60,000 bases of DNA, from NCBI GenBank assembly GCA_038087875.1, contig CM075991.1, forward strand, positions 13,146,001 to 13,206,000. Reading direction: 5' to 3'. The notes beneath the pieces are model-generated. The model saw only the letters and a list, made by a program, of their open reading frames with translations, did not search any database and had not been told where the DNA came from. Below, in pieces: positions 16,864 through 42,378 of this stretch. Every line of letters starts with the position of its first letter. Position 1 is the stretch's first letter. This DNA is from Malacoraja senta. Taxonomy: Eukaryota. Position numbers and translations under genes: made by a program.

Positions 16864-17022
16864 GGTTCCTCGCCTGAACAAGTGTCTGAAGCATTGCGGA
16901 ATGTTCCTGGCGGTGAGAAGTTTGCCAAGTACTGGATTTGCCGAGCACATCTGCTAGAATTAACTGGTACGATGGAGGCCATCGTTGCTCTGTTTGAGCA
17001 GGCTGTTCACAGTGGTGCAGAG
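16864..17022 (+). CDS. CKAP2L: CKAP2L coding exon 6
   Basis: VPGGEKFAKYWICRAHLLE...LFEQAVHSGAE; 159 nt, phases 0/0. Confidence 0.95.
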
Positions 17023-19411: not shown

Positions 19412-19600
19412 TTAATCTATTTTTTGAATTTTAAAATATTTGGCTTCCATGTTATTTGTGTCATTGTCAACCGTCACCTTTTTATTTGCGTGGTGGATAA
19501 ACCAACCTGCTGCCAGACATGACTCAAAATATATTCGCTCATCGGACTGCACCACCTTTTTAAAAAGGAAAGCCTCATTGGTCGGCTTTCCTTCGTTGGG
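19412..19600 (-). CDS. IL-1-family cytokine, last exon (PNEGKPTNEAFLFKKVVQSDERIYFESCLAAGWFIHHANKKV...YFKIQKID)
   Basis: TTTTTCTTTATTCCAG| acceptor, phase 0; FLFxK...FES...GWFI is a degenerate IL-1 signature. Confidence 0.8.
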   Translation of the reverse strand, partial: PNEGKPTNEAFLFKKVVQSDERIYFESCLAAGWFIHHANKKVTVDNDTNNMEAKYFKIQKID

Positions 19601-19935
19601 CTGGAATAAAGAAAAACAAATTATGCACTTACTGTATTTGTAAAGCAAGCAGGCACACAATAGAAATACTGTAGCGGATCCCTTCCTGTCACAGGTGGTT
19701 CTGCTGCTTTGAGGATCAAAAGCATTCGGTTTTTGGCTCGAGACATATGCAGAGAACGTACAAACTCCATACAGACAGCATCCGCCTGAACCTGATTCTC
19801 TGCCGCGGAAAAGCAGCAACCCTACCATTGTGCCGCCCTAGGTCTTGGATGGTGCAGAGAAAGTGAGGGTTGGGGAAGATATGGTCTAATTCGCACTAGA
19901 CTGTTCAATAAGTGTACAACCAAAGAATTATTTAC

Positions 19936-20060
19936 CTGTAGTATGAGCTTTCGGCTGTTTCCCTGACCGATGCAGACCGATACCGATGAGTATTTCCCGG
20001 AATCTTTGCTAAAATGCAGAGATACAATGTCATCTCCATGTGGGGTGATTTTTACCTTGG
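19936..20060 (-). CDS. IL-1-family cytokine, penultimate exon (AKVKITPHGDDIVSLHFSKDSGKYSSVSVCIGQGNSRKLILQ)
   Basis: ATTTCCAG| acceptor, CAG|GTAAAT donor, phases 1/0 as in IL-1 genes; open frame with beta-strand pattern. Confidence 0.75.
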
Positions 20061-21568
20061 CTGGAAATCAGATAAGAAAGAAGTGAGACACAGCCATTCA
20101 TTTTCTGTTGCAATTGCTTGTTGGCAGCAGGGTTTGCACCTAATTGCTGCCCAGAAATACTTGCTACGGGTACAATAGCAGTAGAGTTGCTGCCTCACGG
20201 CACCAGAGACCTGGGTTCGATCTTGATCAAAGGTCCTGTCTGCACAGAATTTGTACATTCTCCCCGTGACTGAGTGGGTTTTCTCCAGGTGCTCCGGTTT
20301 CCACTCACACACCAAACACCTACAGATGTGTAGTTAATTGGCTTCTGTGTAATAGTGCTAGTGAACGGGGTGATTGCTAGTGCACACTGTATCTCTAAAA
20401 TCAAAAGTTAACTTTGCCCAGTTCAACACAGAATGAGAAATTACAGATTTTGATGCTAGTTTCTCATGGTTGCTGCATTCCAGTTTTTCTAATGTAACTT
20501 CTGACACAGGAGACATGAACAATCCCACAGTCATCTAATGACTGCAACATTAATCACCACCAGTGTTGATTTAACCCATTGGTGTTGATCACGATACTAT
20601 ATGATAGAACTTTATTTATCCAAGGAGGAAAATTGATCTGCCGTCATAAAAACACAAAATACATGAAACAGGAATTAAAGTGACAAGTGGAAAGGATTGG
20701 GGGATGTGCAAAGATTTGGGGGGGGGGGAGTCGGTCTACCCCATGACAGAAGAGGGAGGAGTTCTACAGTTTGATAGCCACAGAGAAGGATGTCCTGTAG
20801 CGTTCTGGAACCAGTTTGTTACTGAAAGTGCTCCTCAGGTTGATGGAGGGGGTGAGCTGTATTGTCCAGGATACTCCACAGTTTGAGGAGCATCCTCTCC
20901 TCCAAGACCACCTCCCATGAGTCCAACTCCGCCCCCAGGATGGAGCCAGCCTTTCTGATGAGTTATTAATCTTATTGGCGTCAGCAGCTTTTGCCCTGCT
21001 GCCCCAGCACACGGCAGCCACTTTCTCACCAGTATGTTGTAATGGCTTATTTCTATGCTGGAGCCAATTCTGACCCCACTGCTCTTTAGAATCATAGAAC
21101 CCTTCTGGGTAGAATGGGGCCATTCTGCTCATGGTGCCTATGCCAGCTTTTTCCAACCAGTTTAGAGACTGCAGGTTTGCAAGCTGGTGCCACTAGTGAG
21201 AACACAACAGCTCAAGAGTAGAACCTCCGAGTTCAGGACAGGCCCAATGACCCAAATGTCAAGTGGAATGAGCCGATGTAAAACCTATGGAGACTGAAGA
21301 GATATTCCTTCAATTGACCACCTACTCTCAGTTGGAATAATATTTAGTTAGCAAGTGCTAGAGACCGCCTGTATCCATTGAGAAAGCCTGGGGAAGAGCT
21401 GCAAATTTGACACTACAGGTAAAACTCATTAGTTTAATCAGGTACGCTAATTTATTTCAGATATTTTTGTTAAGAGTAGATCAGTTACCAGGTTCTGTGC
21501 ACAGATTTCTTTGCCAGCTGGCACGTAGGTTTTCTTGAGATGATTGGTGCCAACAAACTAGGGCTTAC

Positions 21569-21695
21569 CATTGCGGTTAGAATTCATGGACTTCAGTATC
21601 ACTTCGTTCGAAGATTCGTATATCCTCACGATTCTGTTATCTGAAGTGTAAATGTAATAGCTACGTTCATTGTCCATATTTCCGATGGTTTCTAC
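21569..21695 (-). CDS. IL-1-family cytokine, first beta-trefoil exon (VETIGNMDNERSYYIYTSDNRIVRIYESSNEVILKSMNSNRN)
   Basis: TTTTTTTTCACCCAG| acceptor, G|GTAAGC donor, phase-1 end joins the next exon; strong-Kozak ATG (AATATGG) at 21677. Confidence 0.7.
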
Positions 21696-21981
21696 CTGGG
21701 TGAAAAAAAAACATTTTAGGGTCATAGCCGAGAAGATGAAGTGACCATTTTATTTGCATTCACATAGTAATTCAAAGAAATCTAAAGCTGTAATTAAACT
21801 ACAATTGTAATGCTTATAATACTTATGACTGTAATGCTTATATTCCCTATATTTTAAATTCAAGTTACATAGTCTCCACTGTAATACAGTGCTGCCCCAA
21901 CTACGCTGAAGTCACGAGCTGTGTAATACGTGCGTTTGACTGTCCAAAGGCTGAGACCAAGCCACTGAAGTGCATATTGGT

Positions 21982-24312
21982 CTGGTGTACACCAACATTA
22001 AAGATGCATATAGAGCAGCCCCCCTCCCCCATATCGGCAACTCTGACCACCTAGTGGTTATGCTCACACCTGCATACAGACCCAGGGTGAAACAGGACAG
22101 GCCAACGGTCAAAGAAGTCAGAACATGGCCACAGGGAGCTACCGCAGCACTACAAGACTGTTTTGAAACCACACAGTGGGCTGTTTTCAGAGAGGCAGCA
22201 ACAGATGACAGTAGCATCAACCTCCAAGAATACAGAATCCGTCATCGGATACATCAATAAATGCACTGATGATGTAACGGTGGTAAAAACCGTCAGGAGG
22301 CGTGCCAATCAGAAACCTTGGCTAACTGGGGAAGTGTGTTCCCTACTGAGAATCCGGAATGCTGCATTCAAATCTGGGGACAACGCAGCATACAAACTGG
22401 CAAGGAGTAACCTATCCCGGGGGATCAGGGAAGCGAAGAGGCTGTATGGACAAAAACTTAATAGCCACTTCGCAAATGACAAAGACACACGTCGCTTGTG
22501 GCAGGGATTTCATACCATCACTGACTACAAGCCCCCACCCGCTGCGGATATGCCAAAACGACCCCTCTCTACCAGATGAACTGAACGAGTTCTACGCACG
22601 GTTTGAGGTTGAAAACACCACCCAGACACGTGCACTACTGCCATCTCCCAGTGACCAGTCGCTCAGGCTGTCCGCAGCCGGAGTTAAAAAGGCCTTTGCC
22701 AGCATCAACCCACGCAAAGCTGCAGGGCCGGACAACATTCCTGGATGCGTTTTAAGAGACTGCGCCGAGCAACTGAAAGATGTCTTCACAGACATTTTTA
22801 ACATCTCACTCAGCCAGGCAGTAGTGCCCAACTGTCTTAAGAGTGCCACCATCGTCCCTGTCCCGAAGAAACCAAACCCAGCCTGCCATAATGACTTTCG
22901 ACCAGTGGCTCTAACACCCATAGTAATGAAGTGTTTTGAGCGACTGGTTATGCAGCATATCAAAAATAGTCTACCTGCCGACCTAGACCCACTGCAGTTC
23001 GCCTACAGAGCCAACCGATCCACAGAGGACGCAGTCTCAACAACACTGAACCTCGTACTGTCACACCTTGATCGGAAAAATACTTATGCCAGGATCCTCT
23101 TCATAGACTTCAGCTCTGCTTTTAATACAATCATTCCGCAGCAGCTGGTGGAGAAGTTGGAGCTATTGGGGGTTGATGCTGGCACATGTAACTGGGTCCT
23201 GAACTTTCTATTGCAACGGCAGCAGACAGTCAGGGTGGGCAGTAGGACATCAAAAACCATAGCCGTGAGCACTGGCTCGCCCCAAGGCTGTGTCCTAAGC
23301 CCCCTACTGTTTAGTCTGCTAACACACGACTGTACTGCTAGACTCAACAACAACTTCATCAACAAGTTCGCTGATGACACAACAGTGGTGGGTCTCATCA
23401 GTGACAATGATGAGTCGGCGTACAGGATGGAGGTGGAGCTGCTCACAGGATGGTGCAAATCCCACAACCTCATTCTCAACGTGGGAAAGACTAAGGAGAT
23501 GGTGGTTGACTTCAGGATGGCGGGAAAACAACACCATACACCTCTGCACATCGATGGAGCTGATGTGGAAAGGGTCAACAGCGTGAAGTTCCTAGGACTC
23601 CACCTGTCAGATGACCTGACGTCCACGACCAACACCACAGCACTGGTCAAGAGAGCCCAGCAGCGACTACACCCTCTCCGAAGACTACGTAAAGCAGGTC
23701 TCTCCACTACACAACCACGAACTTTTTATAGGGGGACAATCGAGAGCACATTAACCTACGGCATCACTTCCTGGTTCGGGAGCTGCAAGGCGTACGAACG
23801 GCACCAACTAGACAGGATTGTGAAGACTGCCAGCAGGATTATTGGTTCTCCACTCCCTTTCCTGCTGGACATATACAGGAAGAGATGTATCAGCAGAGCC
23901 ATCTCCATCATCAAAGACCCCTACCACCCATCGCATCACATATTCTCCATCCTGCCATCTGGGAAGAGGTACAGGAGCATTAGGTGCAAAACCAGCAGGA
24001 TGCTCCTCAGCTTCTTCCTGCAGGTTATAAGACTGATAAACGGACTTTGCCCCCTGCCAAAGTATCGTGCACCAACCACCAACCTGGACACACTGCAGCA
24101 GAGCCACTGTCGTGCCGCTGCCGATCGGAACGCCTGTTGATGTTTAGTAGAGAGTAGAGTGTTCATTTGTTCATGATATATGTATTTTTTACTTCTATTT
24201 ATTTTTTACTGCACACTGAAATGGACACTGGTTGAGGAACGTTTTTTTGTTTCCTCTGGGTATGTGAATACTCAGGAAATGACAATAAAGATATACAATA
24301 CAATACAATACA
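21982..24312 (+). mobile_element. 5'-truncated Rex1/Babar-like LINE
   Basis: RT ORF 22359-24140 ([25 protein letters not shown]) with frameshifts upstream; (ATACA)n tail; TSD ATATTGGT at 21974-21981 and 24313-24320. Confidence 0.9.
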
Positions 24313-24729
24313 ATATTGGTACGGCTGTAATTAGCTCCGGAGCAGCAGCGATGTTATGAAACTTTTCAAAGAGCAGAGAAGGGAGAGGTGATTCCAGTGC
24401 TAAGGATGGTGCCAATGGTGGAACAGTTAAGAACGGAGGAAGACTGCGATGTGTAAGTACGATGGGCTGCAGGAGATGCTGCGGCAGGGTGGGTCTGATC
24501 ATGTGCAGGATCAAGTTAGATTGGATAGGGAGCCAGTTTGGGTAATACTAATAGAAAGTGATATTATATATGTTCCATCAATGGGAGCTAGCCAGGAGAG
24601 AATTAGAGTAGCCAGGAGAGAATTAGAGTAGCCAGGTTGAAAGCTAGATGGTATGAATCTCCCCAACTTTTACAGATGTTTAAGGAGATTCAGCATCTCA
24701 CCACTCCTTAGGCTCTTGGACAACCCTAC

Positions 24730-24758
24730 CTTAGCAAACATCCGTCGTGGACTTTGCG
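24730..24758 (-). CDS. Candidate 29-nt micro-exon of the IL-1-family gene (ATG-TTT-GCT-AAG)
   Basis: TCTTGCGTTATAG| acceptor, AAG|GTAGGG donor, phase 0 in frame with the exon at 21695; could be chance. Confidence 0.3.
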
Positions 24759-25582
24759 CTATAACGCAAGATTAAAGCCACAGCAAGTAAGAGTTTAATT
24801 GTTCTGATCCCAGAGCAAATAACAAACACTTGATTCTTTATACTCTTGAACGATGAGCTCAGCGGGACTATGAGTGAAATAATCACCATTTTCCGAGCTG
24901 CAAGCGGGGAGGTGTTTTTTTCAGGAAATGTTAGCAAAGTAGCGAGGGTCTCATTTAAACTCACATCCTCCACTTCAGCCTCTTTATCCACACAGGTGCT
25001 GACCGGAGTCTGAAGAAGGGTCTCCACCTGAAACGTCACCCATTCATTCCCTCCAGAGATGCTGCCTGTCCCGCTGAGTTACGCCAGCATTTTTGCCTAT
25101 CTTCGGTCCTGACCACTCCTCCCTGCAAAAGCTCCCGAGTTCGGCCACTCTCCCAACCCTCGGACACTCGCCCCTCCCCCAGTTCCGACCGGACACCCAC
25201 GCACTTCCCCATTCCGTCGTGTCAGTGAAAGCGAGCGGACAGGACAAAGATCGCCAATTCTCAGATCAGGAATCATGTTTCAGTCTGAAGATGAGCCCGA
25301 CCCGAAAAGTCACCCATCCACGTTCTCCAGAGTCGCTGCCTGACCCCTCCAACTGTGTCGTTATTTTAATCATGCCTCAGGTCGTGGACCCGAGACAGGT
25401 GCCGGGGGTGGAGCGCCTACTGTTTCTCCTTGTGCAAGCGCTACCTCGGTCCTGGCTGGTGACATCTTGCATCTCCTTTCCCTGACAGTATTATAGGGTT
25501 ACCGGTTACGGTTAGGTACTATAGCGCCGTTTCACTTCATTCCCAAACATCTTAAGGACAATTATAACCAATACTAGAGAAC

Positions 25583-27442
25583 TCTCTTCTTCTTCTTCTT
25601 GTAGGATTCCGGCAGTGTAGACGCTGCTAAGCGTATTACTGCCCTCCACAGGTCAAAGTTTGAACTAAATTCTTACATACAGTCCTGTAACTTGCAGGAA
25701 TTGAAGAACAGCCCTGGATATCAGTTGATGTTTCTCATTGTGTCCAAACAAAGATAAAACAGAAAAAGCCTCAACTCCAAGTCCTGTCAGTCTAACAAAC
25801 AATACTTTTCTTTCTACCCTATACTTTTTACATTCTAGGAAAACATGCTTAACTGTCTCATTACTCCCACATTCACACAAGCCAGAAACATGTTTCCCTA
25901 CAATGCACAAATAGTAATTTAACCCAGTGTCCCAACCTCAATCTACACAGTTTAACTGAGTCCCTACGGGACAGAGATGTACAGAAACATATTTTCCTAA
26001 CTTCAGATTGTATAGAAAAGTAGTGTCTACCCCTGACTTCCATTTCCCATCCTCTCTGCCATTCTTTTGTTAAGCCCTCTTTAATTATTTCTCTCAGTTC
26101 CACTCTCCCCAATGATACATGGATATCTATTTCTCTTCTTAAACTCTCCTTTGCTATGAGGTCCACCTGCTCATTCCCCCTCACCCCAGCATGCCCGGGA
26201 ACCCAGCAAAAAGTGATGTTACACGCAAACCCAATTCTAGAAAACACACTCAAGATTTCATTTAGAATGTCAGGACGAGCTTTAGATTTCCCTACTCTTA
26301 ATGTTTCAAGAGCAGCTGCAGAATCAGAACAGATAATGACTTCTCTAAAACTGGCTTCCTCAATCCACCATAGAGCCCATTGAATTGCCATTAATTCAGT
26401 CGTGAGAACAGAACTTCCATCAGAAATGCGCCGGCCAATCTTCAACCCAAGCTGCTCCACATACACTCCAAACCCAGCTCTCCCACTAACTGGATCTTTA
26501 GATCCATCTGTAAAAACAATCAAAGTACTCTCACTGATTGAATTAAGATATTCCACTATTCTTGGAGTCACCTCGCGCTTATCTTTTTCCTGAAGAAAAG
26601 CAAGCTCAATAAACAGTTCAGGAAGAACCCAATAGGGCACAGGTAGCCTTATTGTATGCTCTATAATACCCCCTTGTTCCAAACCCAGCTTCCTAGCCCA
26701 CTGATTTATAATGACAAAAAATGTGTTATATTTGTTACCATCATCAACCTCTTGCAACAAACACCTTGCTGGGAAGGTATCATTACACCCACAAAGTTTA
26801 GCCCAGTAATGTAACCCTAGCTTAATGCGCCTTAACCATAAGGGCATTTCTCCCATTTCAACAATCAGGGCAGGGACTGGGGAAGTCCTGAAGGCTCCAC
26901 AGCAAAGCCTCAAAGCTTTTGCCTGCAACACATCTAGCCTAGCCAGAACAGTTTTAGACGCAGACCCATACACAAAACACCCATAGTCAACAGAAGATCT
27001 GATCATGGCCTGATAAATTAGCATTGTCTCCCTGTTGGCCCCCCACTCACACCCAACCAGACTTCTCATAACATTCAGAACTTTTTCACACTTCAACACA
27101 ATTTTACCTACATGCCCAGCCCAAGTCATACGCTCTTCAAACCAAACACCCAAAAACTTAAAAACCTTTACCTTCTCCAATAGAGACCCATACATATACA
27201 GCCCTAACTTAGGTAACTTTCTTTTAAAACCAAATACCATATATTTAGTCTTAGAGGCAGAGATTTTAAAGCCCCATGTGTCCCCCCATTCCTCTACAGA
27301 CACTAACACTCTTTGAATCTGTTTTAAAACAAACTCTACATTACAACCTCTTTTCCAGATGGCCCCGTCATCTGCAAACAAAGACAGACCAAATCCTCTC
27401 TCTAATTTACAAAATATGTCATTTATCATGATATTAAATAAA
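25583..27442 (-). mobile_element. 5'-truncated I/Nimb-clade LINE with RNase H
   Basis: ORF 25873-27429: LFADD, RNase H motifs FTDGS/TELMAI/SDS/WVPGH.G..GNE, C-terminal CCHC; (GAA)n tail; TSD ACTAGAGA[A/T]CTCTCTT at 25573 and 27443. Confidence 0.85.
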
Positions 27443-29363
27443 ACTAGAGATCTCTCTTTGAATTAAACCATTTAAAAAGCCGTGTTCTTGTACTAATCGC
27501 CACCCAATGACTGTCGCAGATAAATAGCAGCGAGTAGATGTGGCGCTGATTCTCTCTCAGCATCACCTGGTTGAATAGCCTTTCGGGCCAAGAGAACAAA
27601 ACGCCTCGGGCCAGTGCCAAATGAGGAACCCTACTGCAGCAGGAAAATCTTTCACCACACACGCTTCCAGCCTGGTCTATTTTTGTTTTCGCTTCACAGC
27701 ATCTGCAAAGTGTTCCTTTTGGACTATTGTGGAGGTTTTTAATCTCATAACCACCCACCCCCCCCCCTCCCAAACTAATTGTTTGCATCATCAGTGGTGC
27801 AGAAGTGGGAATGGCACTTCACATTCCTTGCTGTTAATATTACTAATGATCTGTCATGGAGCAACCATATTGATGCAACAGCTATGAACGCACACCAATT
27901 TATCTATTTTCTGGAGAGAATGAAGACATTTGGCATGTTTCCAGTGTATAGTATATCTGATCTGTTGGGATGGCATGTAAAACAAAGCTTTTCACTGTAC
28001 CTCGAAACGTGACAATAATAAACCTAAAGCTGATCCAACCTGATGCAAGAAAAGCCATGTGCCAGACAACATCCTACTGTCCCACTGAAAAAGTGTGCTC
28101 CTCAGCTAGCTGAGCCTCCAAACAAACCATTTCAGTACAGTTGGGAAATTGCCCTGGAATATCCTATTCTCTAAAAGCAGGAAAAATCCAATCCACCTAA
28201 TTACTATTCAGTCAGGCTATTGTCAATCATCATCAAAGTGATGAAAGCTGCAGTGTTATCAAGTGAAACTCACCAATAACTTATTCCCCATCACCCAATT
28301 TGGGTTCAACTCCAGACATCATCACAAACGTTGTCCAACCAAAGACTAAAGGGCTGAATTGCAGAGGTAAGGTGAGAACGACTGCCCTTTAATTCAAGGC
28401 TTGCTGGAGTTCGGAGTCGGTCACCAACCAGGTCAGCTCCCGATGTTACCATCCACAGGGCCCACGCCCGAAGTCTCACGTGTGTGTGTGAGCGGTCACC
28501 AAGAAATTGTGTCTCCCCGTGTTTTGATAGCGATTTCCGCCATTGCTCTACAAAACACAATCTGCATACTCTGGCAGCAGCTCTCAAATCCACAATCTCA
28601 GCCATCAAGAGAGCTAATGACAATAGGTGTCTGCTATTTCTTTCTTGGTTCCACACCATCCTGACCCGGAAGTAGATTGCTTTTCCTTCATTGCATCTAA
28701 GACTTGGAACTCTCTGCCAAACAGCCCTTTGAGGAACCTTCACCTGAAGGACTGCATGAAGATGGCCTTTACAGAGCAGTTAAGGGATAGGTAAGAAAAC
28801 TCCTCACCCTGTCATCTCTGCAAACAACCCCCTCACCCACTCCCTCTGTGCACCCAGTTTGAGAGATCTACTCAGCTACTTATATTGTACTGCTGTATGA
28901 ACAACTTTTAACCCTGAACAATCTTTGGAACCCTCTCATTCACAACTGAACGGTACTTCCATCAGCTAGAGTGCATTCCTGACCTCCCATCTTCCTGATC
29001 GGAGACCTAAATGTCGTCCCCTTTATCCTTTATCTGTACACCCTGCATTGCTTGTTTTGTCTTGTTTTCGTGGCTTGTTTTCTTTGACTGCATAGCACAC
29101 AAACTAAATGTTTTCACTGTACTTCAGTGTACATGACAATAATAAACTAAACTAAAGATCCTAGAATCCATTCTCAGATGATAAGTAGGTAAATAACAGC
29201 AAATATTCTTGCAATTGGAGCTAATATAAATAAATTCATTTCTTTTTTGCTAAATGAGTAGCAAATTCATCCAGTATATCTAACCCTTTGCTCTATATAT
29301 TGTACTTGAGTTTGACTTGATTGCATTTACTTTTGAGTTCTCTGATCTGTTTAGATAGCATGC

Positions 29364-29855
29364 AATATGTACCTATCGGCACATTGACAATAAACCTAAT
29401 CCTAAAACAACATCAACAATCAAGAAGAAAAGTGCATTAATAATTTAATCTTACGTTCTAATCTTACGAACGATGATAAACAGATATTGCAAGGTCAAAC
29501 CCCAAATTAAAATATATAGATGGAGAACTGTCCCCAGAAGTATGGATCAATAACATTATCCTAGTTTAGTGCAGCATTCCGCTTTGTACAAAGACATACT
29601 CACTTAGCTTTCGAGGGTTTATTGAGCTTCGCCTCACTGATGCTCACCAGCTAATGCCTGGTACGTTCCTGGTTTCTCCCTCCTTTATATAGAAATAAAG
29701 GTGAGGCTTTCAACTACCAGTTGTCTGACTTCCTGTTGTGTAATAATCAGATTTCATGAAAGTGATATGGCACCATATCAGGCATAACATAAGGTTCATA
29801 AGCATTTAACACATAGTTGTGTGAAACCAATGTTGTGCAATGTCAATGGCAAGTC
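29364..29855. repeat. Direct duplication copy 1 (copy 2 at 31304-31784)
   Basis: Near-identical ~480-bp blocks offset by 1940 bp. Confidence 0.95.
29598..29745 (-). promoter_or_regulatory. Putative IL-1-family promoter and non-coding exon 1 (second copy 31538-31685)
   Basis: Minus strand: C/EBP-like ATTACACAA, ETS CAGGAAGT, TATATAAA (29691-29684), ATG-free ~55-nt exon, donor AA|GTGAGT at 29603. Confidence 0.6.
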
Positions 29856-31315
29856 TTTTTTTAATGTTTTTATTTTTTATTTTATTTTTTAGAAGTAAGT
29901 ACAATAATGTGTTACCAAAGTACCTAATACTTATTGACATATTACATTTCATATACAACTTCTTATTTTTAATTTAATAATAAAGCAAAAATAAGAAATG
30001 AAAGATTACAAAAGGAAAGATTGAGATGAAGTGTTGCGTGAGATAGCAAAATAGCCCTAGAAAAAAAATGAGGAGAAAAAAAGAAGAGAATAAAGAAAAA
30101 AGAAACAAAAGAGAAGAGGAAAGGAGATTGAAAGCGATAAGTCTATTTCATAATCCTGTTTCTGAACCATTATATTTCTATGATTGTGTTGCACCATATG
30201 CTTGTAGAAAGTCGATAAAGGGAGACCATATCAATAAGGTCTACCTTACCTACTAGAAGGAGTCGTATTTCTTCAAGATATGCCGTTTCTGACATATTTG
30301 AAATCCACATTTTCAGTGTTGGTGTTGGCGAATCTTTCCAAAATTTAAGTATGATTTTTTTTGCCATTATTAAACTGTAATTAAGTAAGGATTTTTGATA
30401 CGTATTTAGCTTATTCCCGTCTTCCAGTGATCCAAAGATAATCATTTCTGTATTCGATTCCAGTCTTCTATTAATTAAATTTGTAAAAATTTCATTCCAG
30501 AATTTATGAAGTTTTATACAGGAGACAAAAGAGTGTTATAGTGGCATTCTCAGCTAAGCATTTATCACATATTGGTGAGATATTTGGATAAAATTTATAC
30601 AATCTAGCTTTCGAGTAATATAGTCTATGTAAAATTTTAAGTTGGATTAAATTATGTTTTACATTAATCGAACATTTATGTATATATATCAGGTATTTTT
30701 CCCATGCTTCTTTCGCAATTTTTATCTGTAATTCTTGTTCCCAATCTACTATAATTGCTTCTGTCGATGGAGGTTCTATATTTTAAATGATATTATATGT
30801 ATGATATTAAATTGCTTGAATCTGCTTTAATATTCATCGCTTCATCTAGTGAATCTAAAGTTATATATTGATATCCTTGTATGCGTTTTTTCAAATAATC
30901 TCTAATTTGAAGGTATTTAAAGTATTGATTATTTTTCAAGTTGTATTTTAATTGTAGTTGTTGAAATTATTTTAAAAAATCCCATTTCATACAAATCTCC
31001 AAAGCTTTTAATTCCTAATCTTTCCCAAAAGGTATACGCTTCATCAATAAGAGATGGCTTAAATGAGGGGTTATTTACTATTGGAGTTAAAAGCGATAAA
31101 TTTCTTACTTTCAAAGTTAGTTTTATTTGTTTCCAAATTCGAATTGTGATGTGAATAATTGGGTTCTTCTTATATATTGTATTGTTTAATTTTATTGGGG
31201 AGAAGAGGATCGCTCCTATATTAAAAGGAGAACAATCCTCTTTCTCCATTCTTATCCATTCTACCTGTTGGGCAGAGCTGTCCCACCAATTAATTATGTT
31301 CTTAATATGTACTGC
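29856..31315 (-). mobile_element. 5'-truncated, decayed L1 (ORF2 C-terminus, 3' UTR, poly-A)
   Basis: Frameshifted ORFs homologous to the C-terminus of ORF2 33800-37483; T-run at 29856. Confidence 0.9.
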
Positions 31316-31784
31316 CTATCGGCACATTGACAATAAACCTAATCCTAAACCATCAACAAACAAGAAGAAAAGTGCATTAATAATTTAATCTTACGTTCTA
31401 ATCTTACGAACGATGATAAACAGATATTGCAAGGTCAAACCCAAAATTAAAATATATAGATGGAGAACTGTCCCCAGAAGTATGGATCAATAACATTATC
31501 CTAGTTTAGTGCAGCATTCCGCTTTGTACAAAGACATACTCACTTAGTTTTCGAGGGTTTATTGAGCTTCGCCTCACTGATGCTCACCAGCTAATGCCTG
31601 GTACGTTCCTGGTTTCTCCCTCCTTTATATAGAAATAAAGGTGAGGCTTTCAACTACCAGTTGTCTGACTTCCTGTTGTGTAATAATCAGATTTCATGAA
31701 AGTGATATGGCACCTTATCAGACATAACATTAGGTTCATAAGCATTTAACACATAGTTGTGTGAAACCAATGTCAAGTCAAGTC
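31304..31784. repeat. Direct duplication copy 2
   Basis: Matches 29364-29855. Confidence 0.95.
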
Positions 31785-33370
31785 TATTCTCATTTCCTTC
31801 TGAATATCCTGATCCAAGAAAAACAAAAATTGATTCATTTGTTAATCTATGTGAAATCTTTAGAGACTACGACCCGCACTTTGGCATTCGTGCCGGATGA
31901 CTTAACTTGGGTTTTTATGTTAATACCTTGTTAATAAAGTGATATCTCAAATGTAGCCTTGTGTAAAAAAAATCACAAAACATTGTGAATGAGATGTCAA
32001 TATACAAAATGTTAATTGTAACATTAAAACAGAATATCTTTATTTGTTCTGTTGTGTGGTTAGCAATGGTGTACTTTTAACAATTCCATTTTATGGCACT
32101 AATTTTCCCGAATGTGATTTCACTCTTGCCATCGGGTAGAAGGTACAGGAGTCTGAAAGATGTGAGCTCCAGGTTCAGGAACAGCTTCTTCCCAACAACC
32201 ATCTGGCTATTGAACACTACAAACACCAACTAAACTTCAAACTATGAACTGTATTAGTTGTATGAGGGATTTGGGCTTCGGTTGTGTTTTGAACTATAGT
32301 GGGGGTTTTCATTTCTTGAACTTTTTTGTTTGCTTATTTTGTTATCTCTTCAGTACAGTGTTTGCAAAAGTATGGTGCTGCAAGCAAGAATGTTATTGTT
32401 CTTTTGGTACATATGAAAATTAATCACTTAACTTCACTACTTTGAAAGGCTCACTGAGAAATTTGACAGTTAATAATAAATGAAGAATGGAATTAGTAAT
32501 TGGCAAATGAGAAGTTCCACGTTTGATTAATTAGATCCTTCACAAGGCTGAAAGTGCCCAGGCCTGGTGGGGTACTTGATCTGACCGTACTCCTAAAACA
32601 CATGCGCAACAACCGTCTGAAGGTTTTGCAGACATCTTCAGTCTCTCATTACTGAGGTTCCCTCCTGCCTTAAAAGGACTTCAATAATACCGGTGCCCAA
32701 GACAAGTATGGTGACATGTCTCAATGATCACTGACCAGTGACACTGATGTCTGTGGATGAAGTGCTTTGACACGTTGGTTATGACACATCATCTCCGGCC
32801 TTAGTAAGGGCTGGGCCCACTACTATTTCTCTACTGTGAAATTGGATCAACAATATTGATTACAATATTGTTTGCAATGGATGAAATACATTTGGAGGCT
32901 GGAGGCATAGATTTAAGACAAAATATGATGTATACTTGTTGGTACATGAAACCGTGTCGTTGAGATCAGACTATTTGACTGAACTGATTTCACACTTGAC
33001 TGGAGAGAGACAGTGGGTAACAAATAACACATCTAATTTGCGTATTGTTTCTGGTTTGGGGTGGGAGATTGCAACCTTCACGTGGTCCACCCTGTTTAGA
33101 CGAATGCAATCAACCCGACATGCACAAACAAGCTCAAATAGAACAAGTTGACCTGCATCTTTAGGCTGTGCATGCCATACACAAGAATTTCCGGAAGTGG
33201 CGGTGCTGCCAAGCAGCTCGCTTGCAGTCCGTCTGTCTTTTCCTTTTTTTGTTTTATTTTGTCTTGTTAGATGTACGTTTTAGTCTAATTTTAGTTGTGT
33301 ATATGTGGGTGGTGGGGGAAACTTTTTTAAACTCTTCCTTCAACAGGAATGCGACCTTTTCCTTGTCATA

Positions 33371-33405
<35 letters not shown>

Positions 33406-33799
33406 AATTTTTTTAATAGAAGTACGGTAGATTACAGTAATGTACAACACGTATATATTAATACATTTTTTGTACCGCTTCACTTTTTTAAACTTTAAGA
33501 AAGAAAAAGAAAGAAGTAAGAAAAGTGAAGAAAGTGCGCAAAGCTTGTGAAGTGCAAAAGAGTGTTGGGAAAAGAAAGCCCCTTAGAAAAGAAGTTAGAG
33601 AAGGAAGTAAAGTTAGAAAATAGACCCTAGAAAAGAAAGAGAAAGAAAGAAGGAACAATCGCTCTATTATAACTCTTATAACATACTTCATAGAGAAGGA
33701 ACTACCAACCAAGTCTGTTTTTGTTTTACCTCCCATTACCAGGTCCAGATACCTTTTATTTATTTATTTGTTTTTCTAAATTACTATTGCACCTCATGC

Positions 33800-36700
33800 T
33801 TATAATAGGTCCAAAAACGTAGACCACGTCTTTTGAAATTGGTCTACTTTGCCTACTAGGAGGAATCTCATCTCTTCCAGATGTAATGTTTCCAACATAT
33901 TTGATGTCCACATTTTTATTGTTGGTGTGGGCGCATTTTTCCAGAATTTAAGTATAAGCTTTTTTCCCATTATTAGCCCATAATTGAGTAAATTCTTCTG
34001 ATACACGTTTAATTCAGGAATACCTTCCGATATTCCAAAAATAATCCATTCTGGTTTTGGTACCAGTTTTATTTTGATTAATTTTGAAAAAATATCAAAT
34101 ATTTCAAACCAGAATTTTTGGATTTTTGTACAAAAAACAAAAGAATGTGCTATGGTAGCTTCTTGACATATACATTTATCACAGATTGGTGAGACGTTAG
34201 GAAAGATTTTATTTAGTTTGGTTTTTGAATAATATAATCTATGTAATGTTTTAAATTGGATAAGCGTATGTCGTACGTTGATCGAGCATTTATGCACCTG
34301 TAATAAATGATTATCCCAACTCTCTTTTGAAATTTTTATACCTAGATCTTGTTCCCAATCTCTTCTAATTCCATCTGTTGTGGGTATTTCTATGTTTAAG
34401 ATGATATTATATAAGTATGATATTAAATTAACTGATTCCGCCTTTGTCTTCATTGCTTCATCTAGTAAGTCGGAAGGCATATTATAATAATCTTTTGTGT
34501 GTGTTTTCAAATAGTCACAGATTTGTAGATATTTAAAATATTGATTATTTTTCAAATTATATTTCAGTTGTAGTTGTTGGAATGATAGTAATTTTTCTAA
34601 TTCATACAGATCTTCGAGCGTTTTGATTCCCATTCTTTCCCATTGTATAAATGCTTTATCTATGATTGAAGGTTTAAACGATGGGTTATTGACTATTGGT
34701 ATTAAGAGAGATAGGTTTCTTAATTTTAGATTCTGTTTTATTTGCTTCCATGTTCTAATAGTGCTATATATAATTGGATTTTTATTATAATTTTTATTAT
34801 TCAAATTTATTGGAGAGAGAATAATCGCTCCTATATTATTCGGGGAGCAATCCCCTTTTTCCATTATAATCCAGTCCACCTGCTGGGCAGAATTGTCCAG
34901 CAGGTGAATCATATTTTTAATATTTACTGCCCAGTTATAATACATAAAGTTAGGGAGCGCTAGACCCCCCAACTCTTTTCGTTTGTTAAGGTGTGTTCTT
35001 TGTATTCTGTGGGATTTGTAATCCCATATAAAATTTGTAATGTCTGAGTCCAGTTTTTTGAAAAACTTTTTTGGGAGATATATAGGTATTGATTGAAATA
35101 GGTAAAGGATTTGTGGTAAGAAAATCATTTTTATAGCATTTATCCTACCTATTAAGGACATCGGAAGTGTTTTCCAAAATTTAATCAAATTATTTAATTT
35201 CTTAAGTAGGGGATTATAATTAGCTTTAAACATATCATGGTAATTTCTAGTGATCTCAATTCCTAAATATTTGAATTTTTCCATAGCTATTTTAAAAGGG
35301 AATTTCCTGAGATGTGTTGAGTCTTTTGGTTTAATCGACATAATTTCACTTTTGTTCCAATTTATTCTATATCCTGAAAAGGATCCAAAGTCCTCAATTA
35401 AGTTTAATATATTTGGTATACTAATTTGTGGTTTTGTGATGTACAGTAGTACATCATCAGCATATAGGGATAGTTTGTTGTTTGAATATTTTGTGTTATA
35501 ACCGTGAATATTCGAGTGTGTTCTTATTTTTTCAGCAAGGGGTTCAATTACCAAAGCAAATAACAGCGGTGATAGTGAACATCCTTGTTTGTTGCCCCTA
35601 GATAATTCGAATTTTGAAGATAATATATTATTAGTTAGTATTCTAGCCGTAGGTTTGTTATATAGTAGTTTTATCCATGCAATAAAGTTTTCTCCCAATT
35701 GGAATTTTTGCAATACTTTGATCATATAGTCCCATTCTACTTGATCAAACGCTTTTTCTGCGTCCAGTGAGATGATAGCTAACTCTTGGTCATAAGATTT
35801 ATGTGAATGCATTATGTTAAGCAAACGTCTCAAATTATTAAATGAGTGTCTCTTAGGTATAAATCCTGTTTGATCCTCATGTATTAGTCTACTAACATAC
35901 TTGCTTAATCTATTGGCTAATGTTTTTGCTATTATTTTCTGATCCGTATTTAACAAAGCAATAGCTCTATATGATCCTGGTTCTTCTATATTTTTATCTT
36001 TTTTAAGTATTAATATGATCGTTGATTCCGCTAGTGTTTCAGGTAGGTTTTGCTCTTTATAAGCATATGTATACATTTTTTGTAATCGTGGAGTAACTAT
36101 ATCATAAAAAGATTTATAAAATTCATTACTGAATCCGTCTGGTCCTGGTGTTTTTCCATTTTTTAGTGTTTTTATTGTGTCTTCTATCTCCTTAGAAGTA
36201 ATTTGTGCTCCCAGTTCCTCTTGTTCCCTGCGTTCTAATTGTGGTAGATTACAATTATCTAAAAATTCTGAGATTTTATTATTGTCTATTGACGTTTTAG
36301 ATGTGTATAGATTCTGGTAAAATTGAGCAAATCTTTTATTAATATCCTTGGGTAGTGTTAATACTTCCCCTCTATCTGATTTAATCTTTAATATTGCATT
36401 CTCTTTTTCCCGTTTTTTAAGTTGTCGTGCTAGAAGTTTGTGGGGTTTGTCCCCGAATTCGAAGTGTTCTTGTTTTGTGATTTGAAATAATGTTATAACT
36501 TTCTCTGACAGTAATTTATTTAACTGAAATTTCAGTAGTAGTATTTTATTATGTTTATCCATAGTTGGGTCTTTAGCATTATCTATATCTAACTGTTTTA
36601 TTTGATCTTCTAAGTGTCTTTGTTCATTCTTATTCTTTTTATTTTGATAAGCTTGAAATGAAATAATGACTCCTCTTATAAATGCTTTGAAGGATTCCCA

Positions 36701-37569
36701 TAATAACGTGGGGGATATCTCTGGTGTATCATTTAACTCAAAAAATAGATCCATCTGTTTTTTTAGATAGATACTCCCTTGAGGGTCTTTTAAAATGTGT
36801 GAGTTAAACCTCCAGAACGGTTTATTCATAGACATTCCTTCTAGTTTTAGAACAAAAGTTAACGGAGAATGATCTGAGATCGCATTAATATGATATTTAG
36901 GATTCAAAGATTGCGGAATTAATTTTGTATCCACAAGAAAATAGTCTATCCGTGAATATGTTTTATGCACCATTGAATAAAACGAGTAATCCCTTCCCGT
37001 CGGGTTTGCAATCCTCCATACATCTGTTATATTTGTGTTTTCCATATATGTGTGCAATAGTTCACTAGTTTTAGATTTCGTCTGACCTTTTTGTTTTTGC
37101 ATCGATTTATCTAAATAAGGATCTAAAACACAATTAAAATCTCCTCCGATTATAACATTTTGATAATTAGATTCTGCAATTATATTCAGAATGTTATTAA
37201 AAAATTGAGGGTTATCAAAGTTGGGCGCATATATGTTTACCAGCGTAATTGGCATATTATTGATCTCCCCTGCTACTATAAGATATCTCCCTTCCTTATC
37301 TAAAATAGTGTTCTTTGATTTAAATGGAATTCCTTTACGAATAATAATTGCAGTACCTCTAGATTTGGAGGTAAATGAAGAGTGAAATGTTTGGCCTATC
37401 CAGTTCGCCCTCAGTCTTGTCTGATCTTGCTGTTTAAGATGTGTTTCCTGTAGAAACGCAATGTCCGTGTTGTATGATTTCAACTGAGCTAGTATCTTGC
37501 CCCTTTTAATAGGTTCATTAATCCCCCTTATATTCCAACTACATAATGTGATTCCTCCTATTTTCTTCT
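33800..37569 (-). CDS. L1 ORF2 (APE endonuclease, RT, CCHC), open but separated from its probable ATG
   Basis: SWNIRG, LQETH, GDFN, SDH, PGPDG, YADD, CDKC...H....C; no in-frame stop for over 1250 codons. Confidence 0.95.
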
Positions 37570-38831
37570 TAGTGGGCCCAGCCCTTACTAAGGCCGGAGA
37601 TGATGTGTCATAACCAACGTGTCAAAGCACTTCATCCACAGACATCAGTGTTACTGGTCAGTGATCATTGAGACAGTGATCATTGAGCAGAACACTCAAT
37701 CACGTTCACCCACTTGCTTAACACCAGCAACTCAACAGCTATCATTGGTTTGCAAACCTAAAACAAATCAAAGGGCAGAGAAAGGTGAGAGGTGAAAGTA
37801 CACAGATACATTAAAAAATAGGTGCAGGAGGAGGCCATTCGGCCCTTCGAGCCAGCACCGCCATTCAATGTGATCATGGCTGATCATCCCCAATCAGTAC
37901 CCCGTTCCTGCCTTCTCCCCATATCCTTTGACTCCGCTATCTTTAAGAGCCCTATCTATCTCTCTCTTGAAAGTATCCAGAGAACCGGCCTCCACCGCCC
38001 TCTGAGGCAGAGAATTCCACAGACTCTCAACTCTGTGAAAAAGGGTTTCCCCATCTCTGTTCTAAATGGCTTACTCCTTATTCTTAAACTGTTGCCCCTG
38101 GTTCTGGACTCCCCCAACATCGGGAACATGTTTCCTGCCTCTAGCGTATCCAAACCCTTAATAATCTTATGTGTTTCAATAAGATCCCCTCTCAACCTTC
38201 TAAACTCCAGAGTATATAAGCCCAGCCGCTCCATTCTCTCATCATATGACAGTTGGGACAGACGCTTAATAAAGCATCAGCATGTTCAAATAACCATGTC
38301 ATGTCTGAATGCATTCTAGTTACTCCTCCTTGGTCAGTTATTACAGTGTGTGACGCATGGACTCGTTCCACGGCATGAAATCACAGAGCTTTGAAATCTT
38401 CACGTAGTCACTCACGTGAGTCAGAAGTAAAATAGTAAGATTAAACAAGAACTTACCAGTTAGAAGTTTGATCTTTATTTTATGAGGCGTTACGTTGTGG
38501 GATTACGTGCCCTCCACTCCCAACCCTCTATCATAAAGGTCAGCTGGTATGCTAGTTCTCTGATCTTACTATATTCAGTTCACCAACTGTCATCTGTGAT
38601 TTCACACCGCTGCTTTGAAGATTTGCGTGCTGGCGGGTTCTTCACGTAATCCCTCAACGTAACCCCTCATGAAATAAAGATCAAACTTCAAACTGGTAAG
38701 TTCTCATTTAATCTTACTATTAAATAAATCAAAATAAAGGAAAAGATGATCGACTGTTGGCCTGATGCTGTGTGCACAGCATCAGTACAGCTCACTGGAA
38801 GTGAGTTACAAGGCAGGGATGCTCATTACAT
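37570..38831 (-). repeat. 1262-bp inverted copy of 41363-42624 inserted in the L1
   Basis: Reverse-complement match at both ends; identical translations of 37822-38319 (+) and 41875-42372 (-). Confidence 0.95.
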
Positions 38832-39418
38832 TCTCAGCATTTTGTAAAACTATATAAGCCGTATATATTTTTCATACCAACCTCGAGTGTATATTATCTC
38901 TTAACTATTTTAAATTGGTTTTAATATTGTTAAAAATGAGCTGTTCGCTGGAAGGGTTAACGGGAGTCTGGCTCCTGGAGTTATGCCAGGTACCCGGTCT
39001 CCCCCTCCCTCCACTCTCGAGCTGCATAGCACTTGCTGTTATCTGCTAAACAGAGCAGGCTGCACATTTTTTATCTATTACAATTGCTATTTCTATATTA
39101 GTATTGTTAATTATTAATTATTATTAGTTCTCAGTTTTTTCAGTTTTTTATAAACAATATAAGCCATGTGATGTTTTTCACTCTCAGCCCAGCAGTTCGT
39201 CCCGTGTTATCAGGTTTTCCTCGTTTGAGCACGTAGTGTCCTTGAATTACATAGCACAATGTTCCAGCGAAGATAATAATGTCTAGCCACGTCTCACTAA
39301 GAATCTGTTGCTTGAAGTCAAATAAAAAATAAAAAATCAGTGTTCAGTTAATTCACTTTCCTTGTGATACTCATGTTGGGAGAATAAGCAAGTTCGTTTG
39401 TTCATGTCGTCTTGGTTT

Positions 39419-40414
39419 TCAATCTCCAGTTGATGCAGCCTTAGTCGCGATTTCTTGAGCGTATTTGAGAGATTCATCCGAATTAGTGAATGTTTTTGAC
39501 ACTCCCTCAAAGGTAATACGCATTCTAGCCGGATAGAACACTCCACACAAAACTCCCTTAACACCATAAAGAACTTCTCTGGTCTGTGAGAACTTTCTTC
39601 TCTTTTGCTCAATCTCATAAGGGTAGTCCCGTAGGAGTTTAATAGTATCACCTCTGTACATCATCTTCTCTCCGTGGTTGATTTTTTTCATCAGCGCTTC
39701 CATTGTTGAGATATCCCGAAGTTTAATTATGATCTGTCGTGGGTAGGCACGTTCTCCTTGAGATCTTGATTTAAATCTAGGGAGTCGATGTGCTACTTCA
39801 ATTACAGGTACTTCTGGTAGCTTCAGTACGTGTTTAATTAGGTTGGCAGCGAACTCACAAACATTGTCCCCCTCAGCTCCCTCTTTTACACCACGTATTC
39901 TTATATTTTGACGTCTTGAGCGAGCTTCTAGGTCAACACATTTATTCGAAACCTTTGTGACTTGGTTCTTGAGACTATCTATTTCTGACTTCATAGTCTG
40001 CATCTCTCCAGCCATCACTTCCACAGCAGCTTCCAAATCTTTCACTGCAGATGCATTTGCAGCCACAGTTTCGTGCACAGCCTCAAACCTCTTTATGGTC
40101 TCTTCTGCCACCTTTTCAATTTTTATCGATAATCCTTTTTCCACACCTTCAATTCTTTTTTGGAGAGCCTCAATACCCTCAAGTATTTTATCATTACCGG
40201 CCATCAATTTACTGTTCCCAGCTTCCATATCATTTTTGATATCTCTTACCGAGTTTCTTAAGTCCTCCATTTCGGCTTTCTCTTTTGCAGATCGAGTAGC
40301 CATTCCAGAGACCTCTCCAGAGGTCAGTTCTGAAGTTTCTTGCTGTTCCAGAGTCTTCAGCAGATGTTTTGAGATTTTCCTCTGTGGGCTCTGACCTGGA
40401 GATGTACTTTTCAT
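39419..40414 (-). CDS. L1 ORF1 (coiled coil plus RRM/CTD), intact
   Basis: 331 aa with DLEARSRRQNIRIRGVKEG, AHR, PRQII, FYPARMRI. Confidence 0.92.
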   Translation of the reverse strand: MKSTSPGQSPQRKISKHLLKTLEQQETSELTSGEVSGMATRSAKEKAEMEDLRNSVRDIKNDMEAGNSKLMAGNDKILEGIEALQKRIEGVEKGLSIKIEKVAEETIKRFEAVHETVAANASAVKDLEAAVEVMAGEMQTMKSEIDSLKNQVTKVSNKCVDLEARSRRQNIRIRGVKEGAEGDNVCEFAANLIKHVLKLPEVPVIEVAHRLPRFKSRSQGERAYPRQIIIKLRDISTMEALMKKINHGEKMMYRGDTIKLLRDYPYEIEQKRRKFSQTREVLYGVKGVLCGVFYPARMRITFEGVSKTFTNSDESLKYAQEIATKAASTGD

Positions 40415-41472
40415 TTAAAATGACTTTCCCTCCGTTAAAATCGCGGCGCTTACTGATGACGTCATCAGCACCGCGACATGAAGCTCCGGTAAGTTTTTAA
40501 AAACGGTCCCGACCTCCAGACCCGATTTTAAAGCGAAAAAACGCGATTTTTTCAGCGGAGCTAAAAAGTTTGCGACTGCTAGCAAAGCATGTCGCCACCG
40601 GAAGTCTCCTTGTCATATCTTTGTCTCCGTCTGCGCCGAGGCCTAATATCGTGGAGCTGGAGGCCTCCAACTGGAATCGACCTTGGGGGCTCCGGTGGCA
40701 GAGCCTGTAGACTCACCATCGCGGAGCTGGCTGACTCCGGCTGTGGTGGTGCTGTGGCTGCGACCCGACTTTGGAGCTTCGGCCGCGAGCCATGTGGACG
40801 GTAGCATCGGGAGCTCGCAGGTCCCTGGTTGGTGACCGATTCTCGGGAGCTCCCGCAACAGCAGCTTCATCCACCACGGGTCACGGAGTTTGAATCAGCC
40901 CATTCGCGGAGCTTTGAATCGGCCGCGGGATTTACCATCACCCTGCGAGGGCTTCAACATCGAGAGCCTTGATCGCCTCGACGCAGCGGGAGAACAAGCA
41001 AGGAAGAGATAAGACTTTTTGCCTTCCATCACAGTGAGGAGATGCCTGGAGATTCACTGTGATGGATGTTTGTGTTAAATTCTGTTCATTGTGTGTATTA
41101 TGTTGCTTTTTTTTCTGTCATGACTGCAAGCTACGCAATTTCTTTCTAACTATTGTTTGAATGACAATAAAGGAAATTCAATTCAATTCAAGAAGAAGAA
41201 GGTTACCGGTTAGGTGACTGAACTGGATCACATTTACATGACATTCCCTATGGATTACTCATGGGATGGGACAGTTTTTATTTCCATAATGATCCCAGTT
41301 TTCCCATTTACACTTCTCATCCCTTTTATCTAGCCATGCATCAACCTTTTCTTTTGATTAACATGTAATGAGCATCCCTGCCTTGTAACTCACTTCCAGT
41401 GAGCTGTACTGATGCTGTGCACACAGCATCAGGCCAACAGTCGATCATCTTTTCCTTTATTTTGATTTATTT

Positions 41473-41763
41473 AATAGTAAGATTAAATGAGAACTTACCA
41501 GTTTGAAGTTTGATCTTTATTTCATGAGGGGTTACGTTGAGGGATTACGTGAAGAACCCGCCAGCACGCAAATCTTCAAAGCAGCGGTGTGAAATCACAG
41601 ATGACAGTTGGTGAACTGAATATAGTAAGATCAGAGAACTAGCATACCAGCTGACCTTTATGATAGAGGGTTGGGAGTGGAGGGCACGTAATCCCACAAC
41701 GTAACGCCTCATAAAATAAAGATCAAACTTCTAACTGGTAAGTTCTTGTTTAATCTTACTATT
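41473..41763. repeat. Fold-back element with ~80-bp inverted arms (MITE or DIRS-type terminus); copies at 38431-38721 and 44030-44320
   Basis: AATAGTAAGATTAAA..AACTTACCAGTT..GATTACGTG is mirrored by CACGTAATCCC..AACTGGTAAGTT..TTTAATCTTACTATT. Confidence 0.8.
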
Positions 41764-41954
41764 TTACTTCTGACTCACGTGAGTGACTACGTGAAGATTT
41801 CAAAGCTCTGTGATTTCATGCCGTGGAACGAGTCCATGCGTCACACACTGTAATAACTGACCAAGGAGGAGTAACTAGAATGCATTCAGACATGACATGG
41901 TTATTTGAACATGCTGATGCTTTATTAAGCGTCTGTCCCAACTGTCATATGATG

Positions 41955-42378
41955 AGAGAATGGAGCGGCTGGGCTTATATACTCTGGAGTTTAGAAGGTT
42001 GAGAGGGGATCTTATTGAAACACATAAGATTATTAAGGGTTTGGATACGCTAGAGGCAGGAAACATGTTCCCGATGTTGGGGGAGTCCAGAACCAGGGGC
42101 AACAGTTTAAGAATAAGGAGTAAGCCATTTAGAACAGAGATGGGGAAACCCTTTTTCACAGAGTTGAGAGTCTGTGGAATTCTCTGCCTCAGAGGGCGGT
42201 GGAGGCCGGTTCTCTGGATACTTTCAAGAGAGAGATAGATAGGGCTCTTAAAGATAGCGGAGTCAAAGGATATGGGGAGAAGGCAGGAACGGGGTACTGA
42301 TTGGGGATGATCAGCCATGATCACATTGAATGGCGGTGCTGGCTCGAAGGGCCGAATGGCCTCCTCCTGCACCTATTT
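41955..42378 (+). mobile_element. CR1 LINE 3' fragment (copies 37816-38240 on -, 44512-44935 on +)
   Basis: ERLGLYTLEFRRLRGDLIETHKIIKG and CR1 3' UTR. Confidence 0.85.

What the first reader, a model, noticed from the sequence alone, without database searches (positions are those of the whole stretch)
29364..31784. L1 insertion flanked by a ~480-bp duplication that doubles the putative IL-1 promoter and first exon
Seen: near-identical blocks 29364-29855 and 31304-31784 directly bracket a 5'-truncated L1. The poly-A abuts CAAGTC at the end of copy 1, and the truncated 5' end joins copy 2 through AATATGTAC microhomology. Each copy retains a TATA box, ETS and C/EBP-like sites and a GTGAGT donor. 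Established: L1 target-site duplications are normally under about 20 bp. Inference: an exceptionally long TSD from a distant second-strand nick gave the cytokine gene two tandem promoters and alternative first exons.
Basis: partly seen in the sequence, partly recalled or inferred. Interest (0 to 1): 0.72.

Follow-up and report, generated by a model that had tools for sequence, protein, structure and literature searches.

The report
L1 insertion duplicated a cytokine promoter
In a skate- or ray-like fish, a jumping gene landed next to a small interleukin-1-like gene and most likely copied about 480 bases of its promoter and first exon as it inserted; such long copies are a known rare outcome, and whether both promoters are used is untested.

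Summary
Two blocks (29372-29855; 31315-31784), 97% identical, directly bracket a 1.46-kb 5'-truncated L1-type element that has no short target duplication of its own. A neighbouring full-length L1 shows an ordinary 13-16-bp duplication. The 5' junction is not a clean 9-bp microhomology. The nine bases belong to L1 ORF2, three more L1 bases follow, and the join uses 2 bp. That fits the cDNA end priming on target DNA better than plain annealing at a second nick. Long target duplications of L1 are in print (up to 10% of HeLa inserts exceed 100 bp), so the class is known. Both copies keep TATA, ETS, C/EBP-like and donor motifs, but at 1.3% divergence neutral retention is expected (about 0.8). The gene is a 140-aa, pro-domain-less IL-1-like protein between CKAP2-family exons and a PUR gene. 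A relative's protein shows a further 45-nt exon upstream of the ATG exon, so the duplicated exon is only an inferred exon 1. No read, orthologue or RNA evidence was obtained, and two other local duplications lie within 14 kb. Verdict: real, probably one L1 event, dual-promoter function unshown. Interest 0.36.

The parts
29372..29855 (-). Copy 1 (gene-proximal) of the duplicated block: about 190 nt upstream of the inferred start, putative non-coding exon 1 and about 230 nt of intron
29364..29372 (+). 9-nt target sequence AATATGTAC matching the L1 5' end; it lies in the 3' tail of an old LINE-like remnant
29856..31316 (-). 5'-truncated L1-type retrotransposon: end of ORF2 (3 frameshifting indels, one 9-nt deletion), 3' UTR and decayed poly(A) tail (about 37 nt, 78% A); same orientation as the gene
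31304..31316 (+). L1 5' junction: 9-nt homology, 3 extra L1 bases, 2-nt shared join (31315-31316)
31315..31784 (-). Copy 2 (distal) of the duplicated block, continuous with the native upstream DNA
29598..29743 (-). Copy 1 core: C/EBP-like 29743, ETS 29734, TATA 29691, inferred exon about 29665-29604 (no ATG), donor 29603; an extra C/EBP-like 8-mer at 29840 occurs only in copy 1
   Evidence: consensus motifs recalled
31538..31683 (-). Copy 2 core: C/EBP-like 31683, ETS 31674, TATA 31631, inferred exon about 31605-31544, donor 31543; one exonic difference from copy 1 (31548 vs 29608)
24965..25009 (-). 45-nt exon (may extend further 5') with GTGAGT donor at 24964; its translation precedes the ATG exon in a relative's protein
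21569..21695 (-). First coding exon of the IL-1-like gene, ATG at 21677
19936..20060 (-). Second coding exon
19412..19600 (-). Last coding exon, with FES motif and stop
33360..40622 (-). Internal control: full-length L1-type element with an ordinary 13-16-bp TSD (33360-33375 and 40607-40622); empty site at 43162-43177

Best explanation
One germline L1 integration made the whole structure. Shown by the sequence: the element ends in a poly(A) at the right edge of copy 1, is 5'-truncated at the left edge of copy 2, and has no short TSD. Inferred: the endonuclease nicked about 190 nt upstream of the gene's start and reverse transcription ran about 1.46 kb. The free cDNA end then paired with target DNA about 485 nt away through 8-9 matching bases, a 3-base bulge and 2 terminal bases. 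It primed synthesis back to the nick (on the same or the sister chromatid), or a distant second nick exposed the same strand. The result is target-L1-target. That the block holds a promoter and first exon is most likely chance. Both copies could still fire, but the default is one main promoter plus a young redundant copy whose transcript must cross a sense L1.
For: The duplication ends coincide with the two L1 junctions. The longest shared word between the 25-nt flanks of the L1 is 4 nt, so there is no ordinary TSD, whereas a related L1 about 1.6 kb away has a 13-16-bp TSD and an empty site. The 5'-end match is the top score among 5000 target positions left of the nick. In 20000 random L1-end/target pairs, 12 reached 8 nt and 0 reached 9 nt. 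Ages agree roughly: 3 frameshifts in 1078 nt of L1 ORF2, against 2 indel clusters and 6-7 substitutions between two copies of about 480 nt. Precedent: TSDs over 100 bp in up to 10% of HeLa inserts and in 4 of 7, 21 of 23 and 22 of 28 inserts in NER-deficient cells (PMC5223499, passages); a 1228-bp TSD in 1 of 25 inserts of a fish LINE (PMC2666801, section 10); L1-bridged tandem duplication via the sister chromatid (PMC7058536, passages).
Against: No empty orthologous allele and no reads across the junctions were seen, so single-copy ancestry is inferred. The inferred nick site (5'-TCT/AT-3', 31783-31787) is a weak match to TTTT/AA. An 8-nt match that includes the terminal L1 bases lies at 28892 and was not used. 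The 9-nt target word sits where this old LINE tail is about 13 nt shorter than two sister tails in the window, so the edge may have been remodelled. Two other local duplications without an L1 at their junctions lie within 14 kb. The last 11-22 nt of the copies differ, which blurs the 3' junction.
Confidence: 0.72

Rival explanations
1. Replication- or repair-based tandem duplication (microhomology template switching) that captured an L1 cDNA at its junction, without an L1 nick setting the boundary.
For: The region is duplication-prone: a 2.55-kb tandem duplication (18 substitutions in 2563 columns) with a short templated repeat at its junction 42507-42535, and a 1262-bp inverted copy with 0 differences. 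The endonuclease site is weak.
Against: The insert ends in an intact 3' UTR and poly(A) exactly at the boundary, the usual mark of target-primed reverse transcription.
Confidence: 0.12
2. An older tandem duplication came first; the L1 later inserted at the junction, with a small target deletion that erased any TSD.
For: Target-site deletions occur in about 7-8% of human L1 inserts (PMC12016303, table passage).
Against: It needs a hit within a few bases of one junction and does not explain the 9-nt match between the L1 end and the far edge of copy 1. L1 decay is not younger than copy divergence.
Confidence: 0.07
3. Assembly artefact: two haplotypes or repeat-rich reads joined in tandem.
For: A 1262-bp inverted copy with 0 differences lies nearby, which can signal misassembly; no spanning reads were seen.
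Against: Both junctions look biological (poly(A); ORF2-continuous end with homology). The copies differ at 6-7 sites plus 2 indel clusters.
Confidence: 0.06
4. Functional add-on (compatible with the best explanation): both copies are active promoters and give two alternative first exons spliced to the same downstream exon.
For: All four core motifs are intact in both copies. Copy 2 keeps the native upstream DNA and copy 1 the native intron. Only 1 of 6 substitutions falls between the C/EBP site and the donor. The skate orthologue has two RefSeq entries for the same 140-aa protein.
Against: A neutral copy keeps 33 motif bases with probability about 0.8, and the low count in the core is not significant (P 0.23). 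Copy 2 transcripts must cross a sense L1 with 8 A(A/T)TAAA words and 3 acceptor-like sites. Sense L1s can lower transcript levels (PMC2176070, passages). Both length differences leave copy 2 shorter, and it lacks one C/EBP-like site.
Confidence: 0.35

Closest known systems
L1 insertions with large target-site duplications (over 100 bp) in cultured cells (PMC5223499, passages; Gilbert 2002 and 2005 only as cited there)
   Same: Poly(A)-ended, 5'-truncated L1 flanked by hundreds of bases of duplicated target; the authors note such events can duplicate exons.
   Different: Here a natural, inherited, about 1.3%-diverged event in a cartilaginous fish that covers a core promoter; those were engineered inserts in cell lines.
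Long TSD of zebrafish LINE ZfL2-2 in DT40 cells (PMC2666801, section 10)
   Same: Fish LINE, 1228-bp duplication, 1 of 25 wild-type inserts.
   Different: L2 clade, experimental.
L1-bridged tandem duplications in tumours (PMC7058536, PMC11702581, passages)
   Same: L1 at the junction of a direct duplication; cDNA pairing with a distant target end.
   Different: Somatic, and kb to Mb in size.
IL-1 superfamily genes at the CKAP2L-PURB locus (teleost IL-1beta type II; PMC7144542, passages)
   Same: Same neighbours, FES motif, ETS plus C/EBP plus TATA promoter as in human IL1B (factors named in PMC3731334, passages).
   Different: 140 aa, no pro-domain, 3 coding exons; nearest Atlas clusters are IL-18, and the Pfam score is under the cut-off.

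Membership tests
L1 insertion by TPRT with long TSD | Insert is an L1-type non-LTR element | tested here: met
   74% nt to a neighbour with ORF1, endonuclease, RT and poly(A); the clade name L1 is recalled from this architecture, no tree was built
L1 insertion by TPRT with long TSD | Poly(A) tail at the 3' junction | tested here: met
L1 insertion by TPRT with long TSD | Endonuclease site at the 3' junction | tested here: inconclusive
   5'-TCT/AT-3' at 31783-31787; the neighbour uses CTTT/GT
L1 insertion by TPRT with long TSD | Direct duplication running from 3' to 5' junction, no short TSD | tested here: met
L1 insertion by TPRT with long TSD | Empty allele has one copy and no L1 | not tested
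   No orthologous DNA was obtained (no genome held; 0 matches)
IL-1 superfamily | Beta-trefoil fold | tested here: inconclusive
   Model of a relative from 2 sequences: pLDDT 35, 12 strands; Foldseek top 3 are IL-1Ra and IL-1beta but E 0.68 or worse; Atlas features 0.94 to IL-18 clusters with recognition under threshold
IL-1 superfamily | Pfam IL1 (PF00340) above cut-off | tested here: not met
   13.8-15.8 bits against 25
IL-1 superfamily | (F/L)ES motif and conserved introns in the trefoil | tested here: met
   YFESC in the last exon; introns of phase 1 and 0. The motif is from PMC13736523; the phase values of other members are recalled
IL-1beta | Synteny with CKAP2L and PURB | tested here: met
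   CKAP2_C exons at 15564-17022, PurA-domain ORF 45370-46404; paralogue names not resolved
IL-1beta | N-terminal pro-domain | tested here: not met
   3 of 4 relatives' proteins are 140 aa from the same ATG; the fourth adds 27 aa
IL-1anc (nIL-1F) | N-terminal PDZ domain | tested here: not met
   No PDZ hit in the 140-aa relatives
Tandem alternative promoters | Both first exons transcribed and spliced to a shared exon | not testable with these tools
   No RNA data for this organism were read

The most novel reading that the evidence does not exclude
A single L1 integration created, in one step and in the germline, a second working promoter and first exon for an undescribed, pro-domain-less IL-1-family cytokine of skates and rays. 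The two copies are now used differently, one with the native upstream enhancers and one insulated behind the L1. Long TSDs would then be an overlooked source of alternative promoters in natural genomes.
Probability: 0.2. Interest if true: 0.62.

Novelty: new member of a known kind. Interest (0 to 1): 0.36.

Why it matters
Long L1 target duplications are known from cell-culture inserts and tumours. Natural inherited cases are easily missed because pipelines define TSDs as 5-25 bp (PMC12016303), and they have been predicted to be lost by recombination (PMC5223499). This case has survived to about 1.3% divergence, keeps a readable junction, and has a normal-TSD control beside it. One exonic base difference makes promoter use directly testable. 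Without RNA data it remains a good example of a known process, not a new one.

Tried and rejected
No whole genome is held. No reads or contigs were laid on the region, which leaves artefact, polymorphism and the ancestral state open. A 22-nt promoter word had 0 matches in metagenome contigs. PDB sequence searches gave nothing relevant (0 hits; 8 weak unrelated hits). The profile search returned 3 proteins: the skate protein and two repeat-rich proteins (P0003, P0004) that I rejected as spurious. The fold model was too poor to rely on. My first motif scan used a faulty ETS pattern and missed the site; it was corrected. A notebook entry calls the 28892 site a 9-nt match; it is 8 nt. Rejected: 3' transduction (the poly(A) lies between L1 and copy 1, and there is no second tail), and an RNA-derived copy (the block includes about 190 nt upstream of the inferred start). 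Earlier-finding look-ups by place, relatives, first word set and sequence were empty. Literature searches (listings) showed no paper on this batoid gene. Searches (first 25, 20 and 15 listings of 151, 361 and 106) showed no natural promoter duplication by a long TSD. The library lacks most subscription papers, and no supplements were read.

Full report
Observation. They differ by 6 substitutions and a 3-nt length difference near the left edge (7 substitutions and 1 gap in another alignment). In the last stretch copy 1 has 22 nt where copy 2 has 11, before the same final hexamer. The 1.46 kb between them is the 3' end of an L1-type element on the minus strand. It aligns from poly(A) to truncation point with the full-length element at 33373-40606, whose ORF2 has endonuclease and RT domains, at 74% identity over the coding part.

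Junctions. The poly(A) abuts the right edge of copy 1. The matching site at the end of copy 2 reads 5'-TCT/AT-3', a weak version of the L1 consensus. The word AATATGTAC is shared with the left edge of copy 1, but three further L1 bases follow before the target resumes through a 2-nt overlap. The match is not chance: it scores highest among 5000 target positions left of the nick, and 12 of 20000 random L1-end/target pairs reach 8 nt while none reach 9. A runner-up 8-nt site at 28892 was not used. There is no short TSD, the longest word shared by the two 25-nt flanks being 4 nt. The neighbouring L1 has a 13-16-bp TSD, and its empty site is preserved at 43162-43177, so this element family normally makes short duplications here.

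Mechanism (inferred). The right boundary is the priming site and the left boundary is where the cDNA end found homology. Had a nicked target strand simply annealed at the 9-nt word, the three extra L1 bases would have been a flap to trim. Their retention fits the cDNA 3' end pairing with a bulge and priming synthesis along the target back to the nick, on the same or the sister chromatid. Ages are compatible with one event: the L1 has 3 frameshifting indels in 1078 nt, and the copies differ by 1.3% (95% interval 0.5-2.8%) and 2 indel clusters. One caution: the left edge lies in the tail of an old LINE-like remnant that is about 13 nt shorter here than two sister tails, so an orthologue is needed to show that the 9-nt word predates the event.

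The gene. Three minus-strand exons (21695-21569, 20060-19936, 19600-19412) encode 140 aa. Two 140-aa homologues align to all three; one is an 'uncharacterized protein' of the skate Rhinoraja longicauda. The gene lies between CKAP2-family exons and a PurA-domain ORF, the neighbours of teleost IL-1beta type II (PMC7144542, passages). It has the FES motif. Pfam IL1 stays under its cut-off, Atlas features point to IL-18 clusters first, and a poor model ranks IL-1Ra and IL-1beta on top without significance. It is probably an IL-1 superfamily member, but not a canonical IL-1beta and not the PDZ-bearing IL-1anc (PMC13736523, passages).

Is the block its promoter? C/EBP-like, ETS, TATA and donor sites occur in the right order and spacing in both copies, in 0 of 2000 shuffles, and nowhere else among 518 tiles. 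These are the factors that drive human IL1B (PMC3731334, passages). No other TATA-plus-donor pair lies between the block and the ATG exon. The link is still inferred. A relative's 167-aa variant matches 25021-24965 just before the ATG exon (E 7e-9), which reveals a 45-nt exon with its own donor. The duplicated exon is therefore at least two exons upstream of the ATG. In that variant the match extends a few codons 5' of the likely acceptor, so the small exon could itself be a first exon in some transcripts.

Are both copies used? Unknown. A neutral copy keeps 33 motif bases with probability about 0.8 at this divergence, and the scarcity of changes in the core is not significant (P 0.23). Copy 2 keeps the native upstream DNA, but its transcript must cross a sense L1 with 8 poly(A)-signal words and 3 acceptor-like sites. 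Copy 1 has one more C/EBP-like site but is cut off from upstream DNA by 1.94 kb. One base inside the exon (29608/31548) tells the copies apart. No RNA was read.

Context. The interval towards the PUR gene holds a 2.55-kb tandem duplication and a 1262-bp inverted copy with no differences. This keeps repair-based duplication and local misassembly alive as minor rivals.

Comparison with what is known. Typical TSDs are under 20 bp (PMC10760644, passages; PMC11702581, passages). TSDs over 100 bp reach up to 10% of HeLa inserts and most inserts in NER-deficient cells, up to 5.3 kb (PMC5223499, passages; PMC5717806, passages). A fish LINE gave one of 1228 bp (PMC2666801), and L1-bridged tandem duplications occur in tumours (PMC7058536). 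PMC13526784 and PMC9382457 (passages) added nothing specific. My searches (top listings only) showed no natural case that doubles a core promoter, which is weak evidence.

Verdict. Real feature; one L1 integration with a long target duplication (0.72); a new natural member of a known kind. The dual-promoter claim is plausible (0.35 that both are used, 0.2 that they are used differently) and cheap to test. Interest 0.36.

Noticed in passing
window 19412-25009 (minus): A 140-aa IL-1-like gene with no pro-domain sits in the CKAP2L-PURB slot where teleosts keep IL-1beta; its only named homologue is an uncharacterized skate protein. The 45-nt upstream exon reads as an acidic peptide ending in EVED (LVED in a relative), which may be a remnant of a pro-peptide (speculation).
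   Followed up: partly
window 32717-45067: A 2.55-kb tandem duplication (about 99%) with a short templated repeat at its junction (42507-42535); the first copy later received a full-length L1 with a 13-16-bp TSD.
   Followed up: partly
window 37570-38831: An inverted 1262-bp copy of 41363-42624 with no differences is inserted at the start of the otherwise intact ORF2 of the full-length L1 and spans the tandem-duplication junction. It is a very recent templated insertion or a misassembly.
   Followed up: partly
window 25007-25106: A SINE-like repeat found several times in the window supplies, in antisense, the pyrimidine tract and AG just upstream of the 45-nt exon, as in repeat exonization.
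   Followed up: no
window 9946-10335: A 39-bp (13-codon) tandem repeat of about 8 units lies inside a long open frame that probably belongs to the CKAP2-family gene.
   Followed up: no
window 45309-45426: A perfect 25-bp tandem repeat (4.7 copies, CpG-rich, with TGACGT words) lies just upstream of the PUR gene's coding sequence.
   Followed up: no
window 22350-24140 and 25873-27462: Two further retroelements (RT; RT plus RNase H) make up much of the 8-kb region between the putative first exon and the ATG exon.
   Followed up: no
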